Positions 40,353-55,599 of a stretch of 64,000 nucleotides of DNA are shown one piece after another. Position numbers and translations under genes: made by a program. Within the stretch, counting starts at the first letter, position 1; each line of letters starts with the position of its first letter. Below the pieces are notes generated by a model, which saw only the letters and a list, made by a program, of their open reading frames with translations, was not told where the DNA came from and ran no database searches. The stretch is from an archaeon (lineage in GTDB: Archaea > SpSt-1190 > DYHY01). The stretch lies in assembly GCA_043803745.1 (NCBI GenBank), contig JAZDJS010000049.1, positions 13,920 through 77,919 on the forward strand. Direction: 5' to 3'.

Positions 40353-41060
40353 TTATCCTACCGAGAGCGCAAGATTCATCCTGTCATTGCTATTATATGT
40401 TACTGCCGCAAGTTCCGCCGAGGAGCCGAATATTTCCCCTAGGACGCTGCGGGAAAGCTTCACCGGGTAATATGCAACCTTCCCGCCCGCGAAAGCCCTT
40501 ACGCAGGAAGGAGGGTCGTTCCCGATCCGGCAGGACGAGTCGTTGGCCTTTGAGAAGGAAATCTCATATGACGCTCCCGAAAGCTCCCTCGGGAAGCGCA
40601 GGAAAAGGGTGAAGTTGGATTCAGGATTCCGGTCTGCGAGGATGTCCGCCTGGGCAAGGGCAAACGCAAGGTCGCTTGCAGCGGCGGAAAGGCTGTTCTT
40701 TATTTCCGAATCCTTGATTCCCTCGGAGATTTTCCCGAACATCATTGCGACAAGCGTGAGAATCATGAAAGCCGAGAGGGAGAGGAGGGAGAATTCGATA
40801 ATTTCCTTTTGTGCGCGGCGAGCCTGCCGGCATATTTGCGCACAAAAGACTTCGCTCCGCTCAGCCTTCTGAGCCCGCCGATACCCGAATCCTATTGGGC
40901 TCAGAAACTTCCGCTTCGCTGCAGCTTTTTGGACTCTGCCCAAAAAACCTCGCTGATGCTCGGCCTTCTGGCGTTTCAGTCCAGGAAATTCCGCCAGATT
41001 TCTCCAGTGCTGAAGCACGGACCCTCTAAGGAGGGGCTGAAGCTCAACCTTCTTTCTCAT
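40353..41060 (-). CDS. Pilin-like protein whose leader is extended by four in-frame insertions
   Basis: RRA|QKEIIEFSLL plus a hydrophobic helix; upstream leader repeats RRAQK, RVQK and KRQK. Confidence 0.75.
   Translation of the reverse strand: MRKKVELQPLLRGSVLQHWRNLAEFPGLKRQKAEHQRGFLGRVQKAAAKRKFLSPIGFGYRRAQKAERSEVFCAQICRQARRAQKEIIEFSLLSLSAFMILTLVAMMFGKISEGIKDSEIKNSLSAAASDLAFALAQADILADRNPESNFTLFLRFPRELSGASYEISFSKANDSSCRIGNDPPSCVRAFAGGKVAYYPVKLSRSVLGEIFGSSAELAAVTYNSNDRMNLALSVG
40805..41047 (+). repeat. Four stacked fold-back insertion units (60, 60, 39 and 84 nt)
   Basis: Each starts C(C/T)TT(T/C)TG, folds onto its own antisense copy, and ends GCTCAG, GCTGCAG, GCTCGG or GCTCAA. Confidence 0.9.
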
Positions 41061-51198: not shown

Positions 51199-52080
51199 TT
51201 ATTTGTTTTGATTTCCCGGACCCGAAAAGTGGTCAATGCGGGCTGCGATTGCGAGCTTTCCGGCAAGGTGCCTTGCGATCTTCCCGCGCTTCTCCTTGGG
51301 CGCGCTCTGGATTTCCGGATACTGGAAAATCAGCCCGTGCTTGGGACAGGGAACCCCGCGGGTTAGGTGCTTGAAAAGCGCCTTTTCCGCCCCGAGGACC
51401 TGGACCGTGCTCGAAGGCATGTACGCGAGCCTTTCGAGGCTTCCCGCCTTTGCGATAAGGCGCGCGCAAAGTATTCCGCCGCAAGCCCCCGCAAGCCTCG
51501 GCGCGATTTTCGCCGCAAGCCCCTCGATGTTCTTCTCTATTTCCTTGCGCTCCTGATAGAGGGCGAGGATTGCGCGGGCGAATGAGGAGATTTTCCCGAG
51601 CTCCTCCGCGGGTATTTCCGCCCCGATGCTTTCCAAGGGCCTCTCTATCCCCTCGGAAACCTTCCTAGCGAAAACCTCGTTGTCCGGGGAATCGAGCTCC
51701 GGATAGTAAAGGCCCCAGAGTTCCCGGAGCCGGGTTGAAAGGGCGTTAAGGACGACGTTGAGCTCGTCAAGGGTGTTTATCTCGTTTATCAGAAGATAAT
51801 CAAGCCCGACTCTCTTCCTCATCCGGGCGCCCGTGATTTCGATTGCGACGTTCCTCAGCGCGGCAAGGGCCGCTTCCCTAGAAACGCCGTTTTTCTCGGC
51901 AGCGGCGAGGATGTCAAAGCCGGACTCGGCAACCTGGACGTTGAAGAACGCGCCCTTGTCGGAATCGGACATTTCAAGGATTTCTATTTCCCGCCCCTTT
52001 TGCAGCGGGCTGATTAGGGACAGATCATCTGCCGAAAAGACCCCGAGGGCAGTGACTGCGGCGACTTTCTTTCCACCCAT
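51199..52080 (-). CDS. nop5: Nop5/Nop56/58 C/D-box sRNP protein
   Basis: RLRELWGLYYPEL, PSSTVQVLGAEKALFKHL, PKHGLIFQ and GKIAR.LA.K.AIAARID motifs. Confidence 0.95.
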   Translation of the reverse strand: MGGKKVAAVTALGVFSADDLSLISPLQKGREIEILEMSDSDKGAFFNVQVAESGFDILAAAEKNGVSREAALAALRNVAIEITGARMRKRVGLDYLLINEINTLDELNVVLNALSTRLRELWGLYYPELDSPDNEVFARKVSEGIERPLESIGAEIPAEELGKISSFARAILALYQERKEIEKNIEGLAAKIAPRLAGACGGILCARLIAKAGSLERLAYMPSSTVQVLGAEKALFKHLTRGVPCPKHGLIFQYPEIQSAPKEKRGKIARHLAGKLAIAARIDHFSGPGNQNK

Positions 52081-52197
52081 GATGCTCTAAAGCGCGTTCC
52101 CGCCTTTATAAAACCTGGAGAGGAACTTGGGGAAGTTGTCGGGGCCTGTCTGAAACAACCATTATATACTGAAACGGGAGGAATATCCGCACCCAAT

Positions 52198-52524
52198 ATG
52201 GTTGCCCTTGACGCAATATTCGACATAATAATCGCGTGCGAGTTCGTTTTCCTTGCAATATATTCCGGGAAGCTTTCAAACAAAGTGGGGGTTTTCCGGA
52301 TTGCGAACGCATGGATAATGTTCTCGGTCTCGGCCCTGATAATGGCTTTCCACCACCTTATCGACCTCATAAGGATTTTCGGCCCGATACAGGATATTCT
52401 CTTCGTGCAGGGAAGCCCGCTCTGGACCCTTTCGAACACAATCTATCTTGTCTCGGCGGGAACCTTCCTGATGGCAACCAAATTCCTGCTCGACTCTTTC
52501 CTCAAGCCTCTGGAGGGGCGCTGA
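52198..52524 (+). CDS. Three-TM membrane protein
   Basis: Hydrophobic ORF, first of a three-gene unit. Confidence 0.65.
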   Translation: MVALDAIFDIIIACEFVFLAIYSGKLSNKVGVFRIANAWIMFSVSALIMAFHHLIDLIRIFGPIQDILFVQGSPLWTLSNTIYLVSAGTFLMATKFLLDSFLKPLEGR

Positions 52525-52530
52525 TAGGAA

Positions 52531-52818
52531 ATGGCAGACACCCTCTCGGTAATGATTTCCGCGCTGGTTTTCTCGTCGTTCCTGCTTGCAACTATTTTCT
52601 CGTTCAACGTCAAGAAGCTTGCAAAGGGGTCGAGGAAGCTCATGTGGATAATGCTCCCGGTTGCGGGAATCCTTTTTACGCTCTCGTCCCTCATAGGCGC
52701 GTTCGCCGCAACGGGCTACCTGAACGTCTTCATCTATGAGGCGACGAAGAAGCTCTCGATAATAATCGCCGGGATTTTCCTCTTCTTTTTCTTCAAGGAA
52801 ACCTCGGAGGTGTTCTAG
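52531..52818 (+). CDS. Three-TM membrane protein
   Basis: Similar topology to the previous ORF (KL..G between TM1 and TM2). Confidence 0.65.
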   Translation: MADTLSVMISALVFSSFLLATIFSFNVKKLAKGSRKLMWIMLPVAGILFTLSSLIGAFAATGYLNVFIYEATKKLSIIIAGIFLFFFFKETSEVF

Positions 52819-52822
52819 AGGG

Positions 52823-53170
52823 ATGGATTCCGTCGAGAAGATTTACAGCACGCTCATGAAGGACACCCTTGAGATGGTCTGCCGGATGGCCGGACCCTCC
52901 CTCGCATTCCACGCCGTTGCGTCAGCCCAGGAAAAGTTCTCGGAAAAGCTGAAGGGACTCGTTTACACGCGCTATGACATGTCGATTGAGCTCAAGGATT
53001 CGGGCAAGAACGAAAAAGCCCAGCTCCTTTCCCAGATTTTCCAGGAGATAATAAACTATGCGCGCGAGGTAATAGGGGACAACATTTACATTTACGCCGA
53101 GAAGGGGATTGACGGCGTGAGGGGCGATGCTGAGAAGGAAAAGGTTGCCCTGCCCAAAATAGCGTCATAG
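52823..53170 (+). CDS. Small soluble helical protein (output-domain-like)
   Basis: Two related helix-G-helix motifs (CRMAGPSLA, REVIGDNIY); resembles the C-terminus of 56731..57813. Confidence 0.6.
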   Translation: MDSVEKIYSTLMKDTLEMVCRMAGPSLAFHAVASAQEKFSEKLKGLVYTRYDMSIELKDSGKNEKAQLLSQIFQEIINYAREVIGDNIYIYAEKGIDGVRGDAEKEKVALPKIAS

Positions 53171-53351
53171 ATTTTTCTGCTATTTTGGACTTTGCTACAC
53201 TCAGCCGAAGATTGCCTCCTAAGCGAACTTTCTGCACTCTTCGACTTTGCTCCGCTCAGCCCAAAATAGCGTCTTAGAAGTTTTAGGCTATTTTGGACTT
53301 TTGCCCATGCTCGGCCGAAGATTGCGTCTTGAACGTAATTTGCAATCTTCG
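53153..53351 (+). repeat. Four stacked fold-back units, each starting with a recoded PKIAS* gene end
   Basis: Units start at 53153, 53205, 53260 and 53315; tails ACTTTGCTACACTCAG, ACTTTGCTCCGCTCAG and ACTTTTGCCCATGCTCGG. Confidence 0.92.
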
Positions 53352-53471
53352 ATGCTGTTCCAACCCGACCTGAAATGGCCTTCCGAGCGCCTTTCTTTTG
53401 GAAAATTTTCCCTGTCCGAATAGGGGAAACCCAGTAAAAAAGTTTATTAGTGTGTTACGCTGTATTACTCT

Positions 53472-53695
53472 CGGCCACTGACACACACCAGCAAACCGAA
53501 AAGGAACCCGAAAGGGAAGCTGGAAAAAAGCCCTACGAAACGAGGGCGACAAGAACTTCAGTATGGCTTTCGCTCCCCGCCACAGAACCTCCGGTTCACA
53601 CGTGGCTAAAGGGAGTCCAAAAGCAAACAGTTGGGGAGGTGGCCGGGCGTCCCGGAACGGGCGAATTAACTACCCGGAGGGACGCCTCCCAGATT
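53472..53695 (+). ncRNA. Candidate structured non-coding RNA of unknown family
   Basis: AAAAAGTTTATTA promoter at about 53437-53449; CCAGC..CCC-GAAA-GGG..GCTGG junction; GGCGTCCC/GGGACGCC stem; no convincing ORF. Confidence 0.4.
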
Positions 53696-53702
53696 TCTAC
53701 CT

Positions 53703-54893
53703 TCACTCGGAAGGCTCGAAATAGGGAACTGGAAGTCTTGAGGCATCTTCTCTCGCGTCACTCTTGCTCGTAACTGGAAGGAAGGCCTGCGCAAGGGAGT
53801 TTCTCGAAATCCTTGCGGTCAGATTTCCCGGAGTTGAGAGGTATGCGTCCTTGGTGGTCTGCTCGAAAGCTTCGTAAACGTGCGTCCGCATAAGGGAAAC
53901 CAAATTCCCTGTCCGGAGAAAGTCAAAGTAAATTTCTAGATTCGCCTCAGCGTCTGCGAGCGCCTCGCTGCCGTCAGCGCCCCATCTTGAAAGTAAGTCT
54001 GTTGTCTCTGAAATTGCTCTAACTTCGTCAAGAAAGAGCGTACGGAAATCGAATGGAAAGTGTCTCCAGTAATCAAGATGGTCGCCTTCATGCAAAAGGG
54101 TCTCTGCAATTCGGGGGCTCGTTCTTCCTTTGCGGTCGCAGCCGAAAAGAATTGCGTTCGGGGAAGGATAGTCCCTGTGATAAGGAGCTGAGCAATTCAC
54201 GCCCTTTGAAAGGAAAATATAAGAAATTCCGTGAAGCTTTGTACGCTGGCGCTCGGACAGGAACGGGTAAGCTTCTTCAAAGGCGATAGCAATCTCACTC
54301 GTTCCTCTTTCAGCAAGCCACTCACTTAGCTCATCGGAAACCGGAACGTATTTCCAGGGGACCCGTTTGTCCGAGACTGTTGCAAAAGTTTCCTTGGGTC
54401 CCGTCTTTTTGGACAGCATTAAATCAGCATAATCTTTCGGAAGGCGCAAGATTTCAGTCATTCCGTCGCCAACAAGACTCAACTCGACTGGCGGAGCAGA
54501 TTCAGTTAGCCCAAGGTTTCCTGAAAGATCATCTAAAAGCGCCGCCTCAAAGACGGGACGTATAAGGAGCCTATCTGCAAGCTCCGTCTTCATTACGATT
54601 TGAGGTAACTCGTTTTCCGAAAATCCGTATTTCGGGCCCCAGATTGAAAGTCCGTCTCGAACCTGTTCAATCAAACTTTCAGCTGAACCGGTTGCCGAAC
54701 CCCAGAGGCGGACGTCTTCGAGCTTTTTCGTCAAATAACTAGAAGGTCCCGAAACTTCCCTTGAAATTTCCGTCAAAAGCGCTCGTTCGGCAAGGGTGTA
54801 TTCCACCAATCTGTCAACTAGGGGGGGTCTTGGAGGACACTTCAAAGTTGCTTCCGGAACGTTTACTGTTGCTCCTGAAGTTGTTCCAAGCAT
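53703..54893 (-). CDS. Hypothetical protein with HExxH zincin motif
   Basis: ETLLHEGDH followed by a downstream E (DEVRA); GGAGG upstream of the start. Confidence 0.6.
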   Translation of the reverse strand: MLGTTSGATVNVPEATLKCPPRPPLVDRLVEYTLAERALLTEISREVSGPSSYLTKKLEDVRLWGSATGSAESLIEQVRDGLSIWGPKYGFSENELPQIVMKTELADRLLIRPVFEAALLDDLSGNLGLTESAPPVELSLVGDGMTEILRLPKDYADLMLSKKTGPKETFATVSDKRVPWKYVPVSDELSEWLAERGTSEIAIAFEEAYPFLSERQRTKLHGISYIFLSKGVNCSAPYHRDYPSPNAILFGCDRKGRTSPRIAETLLHEGDHLDYWRHFPFDFRTLFLDEVRAISETTDLLSRWGADGSEALADAEANLEIYFDFLRTGNLVSLMRTHVYEAFEQTTKDAYLSTPGNLTARISRNSLAQAFLPVTSKSDAREDASRLPVPYFEPSE

Positions 54894-55025
54894 TTCAAAT
54901 CCTCCTGAAGCCCGACATCACCACTCAAAAGAGGTCAATATTTAAAAGACTTGACAAAACTGGGCGCTTTTAGGACCTTTTTCAGCCAGGAACTAGAAAC
55001 GGGCGGGCTGTATTAAGGTAGCTAA

Positions 55026-55283
55026 GCGAGGCCGTCCGGCTGAGGCACGGATTTCGTTAATGCTCAAGAACCTGCTTGAAGACTACGCGCGTTCTTTACG
55101 CCCGTCAACGGATTTTTCTTTCAAGAAAACTGGGTTGTAGTGGGCCCGGCCGGCTGAGGCGTAGCAACCGAAGTCGGAGGGAACAGGCCGGAATGATGGT
55201 GGCTGGAGCCGAGCCCCAAAAGGGCGAAGGCGAAAGTCCTTGAACTCAAAGACAAATCCGCGAAGCGGTAAGTTGAGTTCAAG
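55026..55283 (-). repeat. Stacked units downstream of tRNA-Val(TAC), including the shared 88-nt element
   Basis: 88-nt element at 55196-55283; GCCTCAG|CCGGCCGGGCCCACT (tRNA 3' copy at 55139-55153); GCCTCAG|CCGGACGG at about 55032-55046. Confidence 0.85.
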
Positions 55284-55356
55284 TGGGCCCGGCCGGAATT
55301 GAACCGGCGGCCTGCGCAGTGTAAGTGCGCCGTCATAACCACTAGACCACGGACCC
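55284..55356 (-). tRNA. tRNA-Val(TAC)
   Basis: Same body as tRNA-Val(CAC); anticodon arm GCGCA-CTTACAC-TGCGC. Confidence 0.96.
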
Positions 55357-55473
55357 ACTACTACTCTCTGTCCTATTGGGCTCATGTGTCTAAATATCTT
55401 TCAGGGGTTTTTGCGAAACCCCTTTTTTGGTGAAACTTTCGTAAAGTTTCCCATCTAGACCACGGACCCACTA
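55357..55473 (+). repeat. Fold-back insertion at the 5' end of tRNA-Val(TAC)
   Basis: CTAGACCACGGACCCACTA at 55342-55360 and 55455-55473; degenerate antisense arm at 55377-55392; two hairpins in between. Confidence 0.82.
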
Positions 55474-55599
55474 TCTGCAAAAGACCGTTTTCTTCTTTAA
55501 AAAACCTTCAATTGCGGGGGATTCTTCGATTTGCGCTAGAGTAGTTTCTCTCTGCTCAAAGTCAATTATATAATCCGAAAAGAACCTTCCAAACAAGAA

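What the first reader, a model, noticed from the sequence alone, without database searches (positions are those of the whole stretch)
53153..53351. Four synonymously recoded copies of one gene end (PKIAS*), each with its own matching antisense arm
The copies read CCC AAA ATA GCG TCA TAG (53153), CCG AAG ATT GCC TCC TAA (53205), CCC AAA ATA GCG TCT TAG (53260) and CCG AAG ATT GCG TCT TGA (53315). All differences are silent, and all three stop codons are used. Each copy is followed by its own complement (GCTATTTTGG, TCTTCG, GCTATTTTGG, GCAATCTTCG), and the first three by the ACTTT..CTC(A/G)G tail. Copies 2-4 lie past the stop, so neutral decay after simple duplication should not stay synonymous. 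Inference: each copy was once the functional end, perhaps imported from diverged relatives, so the array may record successive insertions.
Basis: partly seen in the sequence, partly recalled or inferred. Interest (0 to 1): 0.88.

Follow-up and report, generated by a model that had tools for sequence, protein, structure and literature searches.

The report
Recoded gene-end copies in hairpin repeats
Behind a small archaeal gene lie four tandem hairpin units, each carrying a silently re-spelled copy of the gene's last five codons and stop; they belong to a repeat family special to this genome that copies the ends of neighbouring genes.

Summary
Four 52-56-nt units at 53153-53351 each begin with P-K-I-A-S-stop. 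Seven of the 18 core columns vary and every variant is silent (P about 1.5e-5 for 8 random events). Each unit forms its own 10-bp hairpin. The two alternating types differ by three fully compensated pairs.

Main new result: the "tail" is a junction motif, ACTTYGC...GCTCAGCC. It occurs 24 times in this 1.23-Mb Micrarchaeota-like genome against 1 for a reversed control, and 0-5 times in each of 60 other archaeal genomes.

The same design (gene end, pairing arm, motif, second copy of the gene end) appears at four other kinds of site:
- after 7 of 40 tRNA genes;
- in the ~90-nt direct repeats around a Fic-gene islet;
- upstream of a methyltransferase gene;
- inside the translated leader of a pilin-like gene.

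Four orthologous loci end in PK(I/F)AS-stop and have no array, so the ~185 nt here are lineage-specific.

Best reading (about 0.45): an array of a terminus-copying hairpin module that grows and turns over at the gene boundary, so each copy has at some time been the real gene end. No recombinase was found. No reads could be checked.

The parts
52823..53170 (+). 115-aa gene of unknown function whose last six codons (PKIAS-stop) form copy 1
   Evidence: ORF list. No Pfam family. Orthologs in 4 of 61 genomes searched, G000 included, all in family f1, plus metagenome contig L029. C-termini are PKIAS, PKFAS, PKIAS and, in G002...SLSKA.
53153..53206 (+). Unit 1 (type A): core 53153-53170, arms 53154-53163 / 53179-53188, loop with stop TAG and a T5 run, junction motif 53189-53206
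   Evidence: (I10: 10/10 complementary).
53205..53261 (+). Unit 2 (type B): core 53205-53222 (stop TAA), arms 53206-53215 / 53234-53243 (9 of 10 paired), junction motif 53244-53261
   Evidence: Duplex energy -9.7 kcal/mol.
53260..53316 (+). Unit 3 (type A): core 53260-53277 (stop TAG), arms 53261-53270 / 53287-53296, junction motif 53297-53316 (diverged: ACTTTTGCCCATGCTCGGCC)
   Evidence: (I4).
53315..53351 (+). Unit 4 (type B): core 53315-53332 (stop TGA), arms 53316-53325 / 53342-53351. No junction motif follows it.
   Evidence: (I8: 10/10). Model R1, which was not trained on it, finds it at E = 1.3e-3.
53358..53373 (+). Probable start of the native downstream flank (TTCCAACCCGACCTGA). It resembles TTCCAGCCCACCCGGA, which follows the stop directly in L029, and lies at the same distance (~84 vs ~83 nt) from the promoter-like box.
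   Evidence: By eye, coordinates. MAFFT did not align it this way, so this is an inference.
53436..53450 (+). Promoter-like box AAAAAAGTTTATTAG, conserved in G001 and L029, in front of the RNA candidate
   Evidence: Reading it as an archaeal BRE/TATA box is from recall.
53466..53700 (+). Conserved structured-RNA candidate next to the array. It is context, not part of the repeat.
   Evidence: 36 predicted pairs, 11 with compensatory change in 4 genomes. No Rfam family.
40807..41020 (+). Second array of the same family: four hairpins a-d with related junction motifs. It lies inside the translated 5' part of pilin-like ORF 40353..41060 (-). Copies of R-R-A-Q-K are re-spelled silently (CGC CGC GCA CAA AAG vs CGG CGG GCT CAG AAG).
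   Evidence: Orthologs in G001 and G003 also have repeat leaders.
55130..55473 (-). tRNA-Val(TAC) 55283-55356 with a second copy of its 3' end (55140-55153) behind two junction motifs, and a second copy of its 5' end (55455-55473)

Best explanation
The four copies are four tandem units of a small repeat module special to this archaeon's lineage. A unit has three pieces: a copy of the end of the neighbouring gene (here P-K-I-A-S-stop); 15-18 nt further on, a 10-nt arm that pairs with that copy to form a hairpin; and a junction motif ACTTYGC...GCTCAGCC.

I read the array as accretion with turnover at the gene boundary. A hairpin module became attached to the gene's last codons. An A-B pair then arose and later doubled. 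Units are gained, lost and exchanged by recombination, either within the repeated gene end (types A1 and A3 share 15 identical nt) or at the junction motif (16 of 18 nt identical between neighbours). Each copy has therefore at some time been the functional gene end.

This accounts for the pattern. Selection on the protein kept every copy reading PKIAS-stop. Selection on the hairpin forced each silent change in the first arm to be matched in the second arm. The evenly spaced differences between A and B also stop neighbouring hairpins from mispairing.

The likely role of the hairpin-plus-motif is at the 3' end of the transcript (end formation, stability, or insulation from the promoter ~85 nt downstream), or as a folded DNA site for the recombination itself.

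Shown: the anatomy, the silent-only and compensated variation, the genome-wide family, and its absence at orthologous loci. Inferred: turnover, the route of addition, and the function. The enzyme is unknown.
For: - Silent-only variation. Seven of 18 core columns vary, all four copies read PKIAS*, and all three stop codons are used. P = 1.5e-5 for 8 random events. For the roughly 3 events that must lie on non-coding copies after the A-B doubling, P = 0.014.
- Similarity between units ends at the stop codon and resumes at the second arm.
- Hairpin selection. A and B differ at stem positions 2, 5 and 8, and all three differences are compensated. Duplex energies are A-A -11.9, B-B -9.7 and -13.6, and A-B -0.8 and -3.4 kcal/mol. 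The stems of A1 and A3 are identical, while their loops and junctions have diverged (the 108-nt period shows 79% matches).
- Across 5 units from 3 loci, 49 of 50 stem cells pair and 6 of 10 pairs change on both sides; 0 of 500 shuffles reach this. I picked those units as hairpins, so this count is partly circular.
- A family, not a one-off. The junction motif occurs 24 times in G000 against 1 for the reversed control, and 0-5 times in each of the 60 other genomes. Model R1 finds 10 hits in G000, 1 in G001, 1 in G010 and 0 in the other 38 genomes.
- Gene-end copies. 12 of 41 relaxed motif sites have a direct copy (8-15 nt) of the sequence after the motif lying 32-128 nt upstream.
- tRNA genes. 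6 of 40 are flagged by the motif, all downstream in sense orientation. A seventh, tRNA-Arg(TCT), was seen by eye.
- A Fic-domain gene sits between two ~90-nt direct repeats, each made of tRNA-Ser 3' end, hairpin, motif and second end copy.
- Lineage-specific gain. The orthologous gene ends in G001, G003, G002 and L029 have no array.
- At the methyltransferase locus, G001 has one hairpin where G000 has hairpin-motif-hairpin.
- tRNA-Phe is followed within about 120 nt by a copy of its own 3' end in 3 of the 4 family genomes. Each copy matches its own genome's tRNA. So end copies keep step with the gene.
Against: - No recombinase or transposase of the families tried was found in the 90%-complete genome: Phage_integrase, RVT_1, Cas1, Y1_Tnp and the TnpB zinc ribbon gave no hit, and Resolvase reached only 16.9 bits, below its cut-off.
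- Types A and B share at most 2 consecutive identical nt inside the core. Exchange between A and B cannot go through the core and would need the junction motif.
- Copy-number variation, the heart of the turnover idea, could not be examined: no runs were listed and there is no closer relative.
- The hairpin cannot form in RNA if transcription stops at the T5 run in the loop of unit 1.
- In the pilin-like gene the silent pattern is explained simply by translation, so it is not independent support.
- Everything rests on one metagenome-assembled genome.
Confidence: 0.45

Rival explanations
1. Serial import. Each unit, or each type, arrived from a diverged relative as the replacement gene end of a small integrating element. 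It recombined at the junction motif just upstream of the resident end, made the incoming copy the working end, and pushed the older end downstream. This would be accretion of decayed elements.
For: - It explains silent-only differences and private hairpins without special pleading. A and B differ at the third position of all six codons, a divergence like that between genera (compare G003 and G001).
- A known precedent is prophage e14 in E. coli icd. There the gene extends into the prophage, a displaced C-terminal fragment icdC lies at the far end, and excision produces a set of synonymous changes (PMC13626634, passages read).
- The Fic islet between module-bearing repeats shows that integration happens in this genome.
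- End copies after tRNA-Ser, tRNA-Phe and tRNA-Thr(TGT) carry CCA although the genes themselves do not. That is what copies brought in from elsewhere would look like.
Against: - No integrase was found.
- Only 34-38 nt lie between a core and the next junction motif, so there is no element body.
- The A-B-A-B order with a 108-nt period points to an internal doubling.
- No ortholog end matches type A or B; 4 were examined.
- Nothing matching either unit was found in viral contigs (0 hits each).
- The junction motif in this form is confined to this genome, so donors would have to be very close kin, yet the cores look far apart.
Confidence: 0.2
2. Static duplication with structure-only selection. 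A 3'-flank hairpin that uses the last codons as its first arm was duplicated by slippage, first A to A-B and then to A-B-A-B. It is kept only as a row of RNA hairpins. The silent look is a by-product: evenly spaced compensated changes best prevent mispairing between neighbours, changes on the coding copy are silent by necessity, and the rest is luck.
For: - The period-108 array.
- A-B cross-pairing is abolished: -0.8 and -3.4 against -9.7 to -13.6 kcal/mol.
- The region folds better than its shuffles: z = -3.64 on the + strand and -4.63 on the - strand.
- tRNA-linked hairpins use G.U pairs on the gene's sense strand (tRNA-Thr; C38 hairpin y).
- All 6 regex-flagged tRNA-linked motifs lie downstream in sense orientation.
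Against: - It needs about 3 silent hits out of 3 on non-coding copies (P = 0.014), including stop-to-stop changes, and the right codon phase for the stem changes (1 in 3).
- It does not explain why similarity ends exactly at the stop.
- It does not explain the second copies of tRNA ends, or why the motif is a burst in one genome.
Confidence: 0.15
3. The junction motif is itself a tiny mobile insert. It has conserved ends ACTTYGC and GCTCAGCC around an interior that varies from 2 to 28 nt. It enters palindromic sites at gene ends and duplicates the palindrome, as spacer uptake duplicates a CRISPR repeat.
For: - The array topology is n hairpins with n-1 motifs. The focal array has 4 hairpins and 3 motifs, the pilin-gene array 4 and 3, and C38 2 and 1.
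- The motif has conserved ends around a variable middle, some with inverted ends GGCTGA..TCAGCC.
- G001 has one hairpin where G000 has hairpin-motif-hairpin.
Against: - No Cas1 or other integrase was found.
- The length of the duplicated piece is not constant: about 11-15 nt at tRNA-Val, Phe and Ser, but a whole hairpin elsewhere.
- The C50 and C19 arrays have as many motifs as hairpins.
- Freshly duplicated hairpins would be identical, not silently recoded.
Confidence: 0.1
4. Assembly artefact: alleles of co-existing strains were strung together.
For: The genome is a metagenome bin of 51 contigs. No reads could be laid.
Against: - Units share at most 15 identical nt.
- Each junction is unique sequence.
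- The same architecture recurs at other loci and in other assemblies (L029, G001, G003).
Confidence: 0.03

Closest known systems
Prophage e14 (and phage 21) in the E. coli icd gene: the element carries a replacement 3' end and the native end is displaced as the fragment icdC
   Same: A second copy of a protein gene's 3' end lies downstream of the working one. The two differ by a set of mostly synonymous changes, and either can serve as the end (PMC13626634, passages read; phage 21 is from recall).
   Different: There a 15-kb prophage with its own integrase lies between two copies. Here there are four copies spaced 52-55 nt apart, no element body and no integrase found, and each copy has a private pairing arm and a shared junction motif.
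Site-specific accretion and cis-mobilizable elements (the ICESt1 family and similar)
   Same: [quoted passage not shown]
   Different: Bacterial, kilobase-scale, and dependent on a tyrosine or serine recombinase, with att repeats that I recall share a common core. Here the cores of neighbouring units share no run longer than 2 nt, and only the junction motif is conserved.
REP/BIME clusters of enterobacteria (from recall, not looked up)
   Same: Extragenic rows of palindromic units of two alternating types, separated by conserved linker motifs, mostly behind gene 3' ends. Stems show compensated differences between types.
   Different: REP stems are the conserved part genome-wide and alternate in orientation. 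Here the stems are locus-specific copies of the neighbouring gene's end, all in one orientation, and the linker is the conserved part. No Y1 transposase was found.
Partial tRNA 3'-end duplications flanking genomic islands (classical att sites; from recall)
   Same: Second copies of tRNA 3' ends lie downstream of 7 of 40 tRNA genes, and one pair brackets a Fic islet.
   Different: Most copies here are only 32-128 nt from the gene, with a conserved motif directly in front of them and often a pairing arm. No island lies between them.
CRISPR arrays and casposon target-site duplications (from recall)
   Same: The topology of n palindromic units and n-1 inserts, and a preference for gene 3' ends.
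   Different: The roles are inverted: the inserts are conserved and the palindromes vary. There is no cas1.

Membership tests
Integrative-element att-site accretion (CIME-like) | [quoted passage not shown] | tested here: met
   Four PKIAS-stop copies. tRNA-end copies.
Integrative-element att-site accretion (CIME-like) | A tyrosine or serine recombinase in the element or genome | tested here: not met
   PF00589 gave no hit. PF00239 reached only 16.9 bits, below its cut-off. The genome is 90% complete, so absence is not proven.
Integrative-element att-site accretion (CIME-like) | A shared identical core between successive att copies for strand exchange | tested here: inconclusive
   Inside the gene-end copy, A and B share at most 2 consecutive nt. 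The junction motif is 16 of 18 identical between units 1 and 2.
Integrative-element att-site accretion (CIME-like) | Element DNA, even if decayed, between att copies | tested here: not met
   Only loop, arm and motif lie between cores, at 52-55 nt spacing.
REP/BIME | The same palindromic unit repeated many times across the genome | tested here: not met
   The array sequence is unique in G000. Only the motif recurs.
REP/BIME | Successive units in alternating orientation, and a RAYT (Y1) transposase | tested here: not met
   All units and motifs have one orientation. PF01797 gave no hit.
CRISPR array | Conserved repeats, variable spacers, and cas1 | tested here: not met
   The hairpins vary and the inserts are conserved. 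PF01867 gave no hit.
Integron cassette array (attC) | An IntI-type tyrosine recombinase and cassettes with ORFs between folded attC sites | tested here: not met
   No PF00589 hit. No ORFs in the units. The attC core motif was not tested with a model.
Diversity-generating retroelement (variable and template repeat) | A reverse transcriptase, and differences confined to template adenines | tested here: not met
   No PF00078 hit. The differences include C/G and T/C and are silent.
Intrinsic (bacterial-type) terminator | A G+C-rich hairpin with a 3-8-nt loop followed by a T run | tested here: not met
   The scan of 52000-55500 lists no site in the array. Loops are 15-18 nt. The T runs lie inside the loops and at 53393-53402.
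Any Rfam RNA family | A match at the gathering score | tested here: not met
   Only 3 tRNAs in the window. At E up to 10 over 53100-53800 there are only chance-level hits.

The most novel reading that the evidence does not exclude
A so far undescribed kind of gene-boundary element in DPANN archaea. It is an 18-36-bp core with fixed ends (ACTTYGC...GCTCAGCC) that enters at the terminal sequence of a gene (tRNA or protein-coding) and regenerates that terminus beside itself, with a pairing arm. Arrays then become stacked, still-competent spare gene ends: a running record of the alleles of a gene's last codons. All this would happen without any recombinase of a known family.
Probability: 0.15. Interest if true: 0.9.

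Novelty: new variant of a known kind. Interest (0 to 1): 0.62.

Why it matters
If the reading holds, non-coding DNA behind a gene can stay under protein-coding selection because repeat turnover keeps moving spare ends into service. That is a clean natural case of three constraints acting on 18 nt at once: codons, a stop, and base pairing.

It also marks out a repeat family specific to one lineage that copies gene termini in an ultrasmall archaeon with no recognisable integrase. That points to an unknown recombination route, or an unknown 3'-end RNA module, in DPANN genomes.

In practice, such arrays are read-outs of strain history, and they are traps for gene callers and tRNA-fragment annotation.

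Tried and rejected
- Sequencing runs: none was listed for 52900-53650, and no RNA holder was listed.
- Rfam: nothing at the gathering score or at E up to 10.
- C/D-box or H/ACA guide RNA: I found no box C/D or ACA elements by eye on either strand. The box motifs are from recall.
- Bulge-helix-bulge intron, or a spliced alternative tRNA 3' end: the stems are perfect, without bulges. By my count of the listing, 28 of 40 tRNA genes lack an encoded CCA, and only 7 of the 40 carry the module, so the CCA-bearing copies are not needed as ends.
- Degenerate tRNA gene: ARAGORN finds none in the array.
- Own small ORFs for units 2-4: none.
- TAG read-through: units 1 and 4 share a frame, and the only stops between them are two TAGs, so read-through would again end in PKIAS. 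However, orthologs stop at the same place with TGA or TAA. I treat this as coincidence (rough chance about 6%, my estimate).
- General habit of hairpins over stop codons: 4 of 2402 ORFs of at least 120 aa against 2 of 2402 mid-gene controls. The 115-aa focal gene fell below that length cut.
- Viral contigs: the junction motif gave 11 stretches and a tRNA-type flank motif gave 14, near the number I estimate by chance and in unrelated contexts. Both unit types gave 0.
- Recombinase and transposase families.
- Origin of replication, or operator sites for a dimeric protein: compensated change argues for base pairing, not for protein half-sites. I did not pursue this.
- Alignment of the downstream flank with relatives: MAFFT gave a noisy result. 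The flank homology rests on my reading.
- The crude ORF set is unreliable. It contains ORFs lying over tRNA flanks. I use only '10 of 24 motif sites lie outside a set that covers 88.5% of the genome'.
- Supplementary files of papers were not consulted.
- First literature search: nothing on such repeats in Micrarchaeota among the 12 listed of 1,332 papers. I make no claim that the family is unpublished beyond that one search.

Full report
**What is there**

ORF 52823..53170 (+) encodes a 115-aa protein with no Pfam family. Its last six codons, CCC AAA ATA GCG TCA TAG, recur at 53205, 53260 and 53315 as CCG AAG ATT GCC TCC TAA, CCC AAA ATA GCG TCT TAG and CCG AAG ATT GCG TCT TGA. All four read PKIAS-stop. 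Seven of 18 columns vary, all silently.

Each copy is followed after 15-18 nt by a 10-nt arm complementary to its own codons for P-K-I-A. Units 1, 3 and 4 pair perfectly. Unit 2 has one mismatch. Units 1-3 then carry ACTTTGCTACACTCAGCC, ACTTTGCTCCGCTCAGCC and ACTTTTGCCCATGCTCGGCC.

Tandem Repeats Finder sees one array, 53152-53352, with period 108, 1.9 copies and 79% matches. The order is therefore A-B-A-B.

**Is it more than chance?**

From copy 1, eight sequential random substitutions stay silent with P = 1.5e-5. Five substitutions confined to the seven core positions outside the stem give P = 0.005. Three give P = 0.014.

Similarity between units stops at the stop codon and returns at the second arm.

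A and B differ at stem positions 2, 5 and 8, and every difference is compensated. Own-arm duplexes are -9.7 to -13.6 kcal/mol, while A-B cross duplexes are -0.8 and -3.4.

Units 2-4 lie in frames 0, 1 and 2 and have no usable ORF.

**Artefact?**

The longest exact repeat in the region is 15 nt and every junction is unique. A mis-join of strain alleles is therefore unlikely, though it is not excluded.

**Relatives**

The gene occurs in 4 of 61 genomes searched, all in one family, and on one metagenome contig. The record titles name Micrarchaeum and similar MAGs.

| Source | Gene end |
|---|---|
| G001 | CCA AAA TTC GCC TCC TGA |
| L029 | CCC AAA TTC GCT TCC TAA |
| G003 | CCC AAG ATA GCG TCC TGA |
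| G002 | ...SLSKA |

None of the four has a repeat behind the stop. None of their ends equals type A or type B.

In L029 and G001 about 85 nt separate the stop from a conserved promoter-like box. In the window the same distance separates 53358 from that box. The array is therefore about 185 nt of extra DNA. This is my own reading; MAFFT did not reproduce it.

**The tail is a genome-wide motif**

A 19-nt search with the tail found it, with flanking hairpins of other sequence, at window 40807-41020 and at contig C38. The two-part form ACTTYGS-N2-24-CTCAGCC occurs 24 times in this 1.23-Mb genome against 1 for the reversed control. It occurs 0-5 times in each of 60 other archaeal genomes, and once in the same-genus G001. 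G001 uses a variant, GATTTCGCTTCGCTCAACC.

A covariance model built from five units finds 10 hits in G000, 1 each in G001 and G010, and none in the other 38 genomes.

Ten of the 24 sites lie outside a crude ORF set that covers 88.5% of the genome.

**A recurrent design**

Twelve of 41 relaxed motif sites have, 32-128 nt upstream, a direct copy of the 8-15 nt that follow the motif.

Six of 40 tRNA genes (Thr-CGT, Thr-TGT, Phe, Ser-CGA, Val-GAC, Val-TAC) carry the motif downstream in sense orientation, followed by a second copy of the tRNA's 3' end. tRNA-Arg(TCT) carries two hairpin-motif units.

For tRNA-Thr and tRNA-Ser, an arm complementary to the tRNA's 3' end precedes the motif, just as in the focal array. 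The tRNA-Thr hairpin uses a G.U pair on the sense strand.

Several second copies carry CCA although the genes themselves do not.

On contig C45 a Fic-domain ORF lies between two ~90-nt direct repeats, each made of tRNA-Ser 3' end, hairpin, motif and end copy.

tRNA-Phe is followed within about 120 nt by a copy of its own 3' end in G000, G003 and G002. Each copy matches its own genome's tRNA.

Upstream of a methyltransferase gene, G001 has one hairpin where G000 has hairpin-motif-hairpin.

**The second array in the window**

At 40807-41020 four hairpins with related motifs lie inside the 5' part of ORF 40353..41060 (-). This ORF starts 26 nt after a promoter-like box and runs into a pilin-type hydrophobic N-terminus. 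The array is in frame throughout. It holds the copies LKRQK, GRVQK, RRAQK and RRAQK. The last two are spelled CGG CGG GCT CAG AAG and CGC CGC GCA CAA AAG, four silent differences at period 3. Orthologs in G001 and G003 also have repeat leaders. Because these copies are translated, their silent pattern needs no special explanation.

**Interpretation**

The focal array is a local amplification of a lineage-specific module that builds a hairpin on the terminus of the adjacent gene. Three layers of constraint are visible: codons and stop, pairing, and the motif.

A static duplicate kept only for structure would need several lucky silent hits on non-coding copies, including stop-to-stop changes. 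I therefore favour a history in which every copy has served as the gene end. One route is turnover within the array: unequal exchange in the 15-nt identity of A1 and A3, or exchange at the motif. The other route is import of ready-made ends.

The 108-nt period shows that at least one step was an internal doubling. The e14-icd case (PMC13626634, passages) and accretion of decayed integrative elements (PMC5704250, passage) are the nearest known parallels. The present units, however, are 52-56 nt with no element body, neighbouring cores share no identity run, and none of the recombinase, transposase, reverse-transcriptase or Cas1 families searched was found above its cut-off.

**Function**

All 6 regex-flagged tRNA-linked motifs sit downstream in sense orientation. 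So do the focal array and two motif copies 10 nt behind the stops of pilin-like genes on C36. That fits a role on the transcript's 3' end, or a polar DNA site. Neither could be tested.

**Limits**

The evidence comes from one metagenome bin. There are no reads, no RNA data and only four comparators for the focal gene. Several counts rest on my own regular expressions and on a crude ORF set. The mechanism is inferred.

Noticed in passing
window 53466-53700 (+): A conserved, apparently structured RNA of about 200-235 nt behind a promoter-like box. It is present in G001, L029 and G003. It has 36 predicted pairs, 11 with compensatory change. It has no Rfam family. It is not the SRP RNA (C28) or the RNase P RNA (C19) of this genome.
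   Followed up: partly
window 40353-41060 (-): A pilin-like precursor with an unusually long (~85 aa), basic N-terminal leader built of hairpin-forming repeats that contain the junction motif in frame. Orthologs in G001 and G003 also have repeat leaders with AQK or RKAAG units.
   Followed up: partly
window 53703-54893 (-): A 396-aa ORF with an HEGDH (HExxH-like) motif and no Pfam family. It lies between the RNA candidate and tRNA-Val. It is not present at this position in G001, L029 or G003, so it is probably an insertion.
   Followed up: no
window 55130-55480: tRNA-Val(TAC) has a second copy of its 3' end at 55140-55153 and a second copy of its 5' end at 55455-55473. L029 shows three copies of the 5' end of its tRNA-Val, one of them with G.U-compatible changes.
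   Followed up: partly
G000 contig C45:3421-5100 (locus L075): A 1.4-kb islet with a Fic-domain ORF (HPFGDGNGR motif, 297 aa) lies between two ~90-nt direct repeats that begin with the 3' end of tRNA-Ser(CGA).
   Followed up: partly
window 53153-53332, frame of the gene: Units 1 and 4 are in the same frame, 54 codons apart, and the only stops between them are two TAGs. Read-through of TAG would give a longer protein that again ends in PKIAS.
   Followed up: no
G000 contigs C14:7069-7236, C21:52591-52767, C21:74725-74867, C19:1-116, C50:1-238: Several 99-100% identical tandem repeats of 44-111 nt, some at contig ends and some containing tRNA 3' ends. They may be true arrays or assembly loops.
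   Followed up: no
locus L131 (G000 C38) positions ~1080-1400, with L133 and L132: A block conserved in G000, G001 and G003 upstream of the methyltransferase gene (for example ...CACTGGTGAATCC......CCAGTATTTGCCGCA...). It looks like the end of a structured RNA gene. It has not been identified.
   Followed up: no
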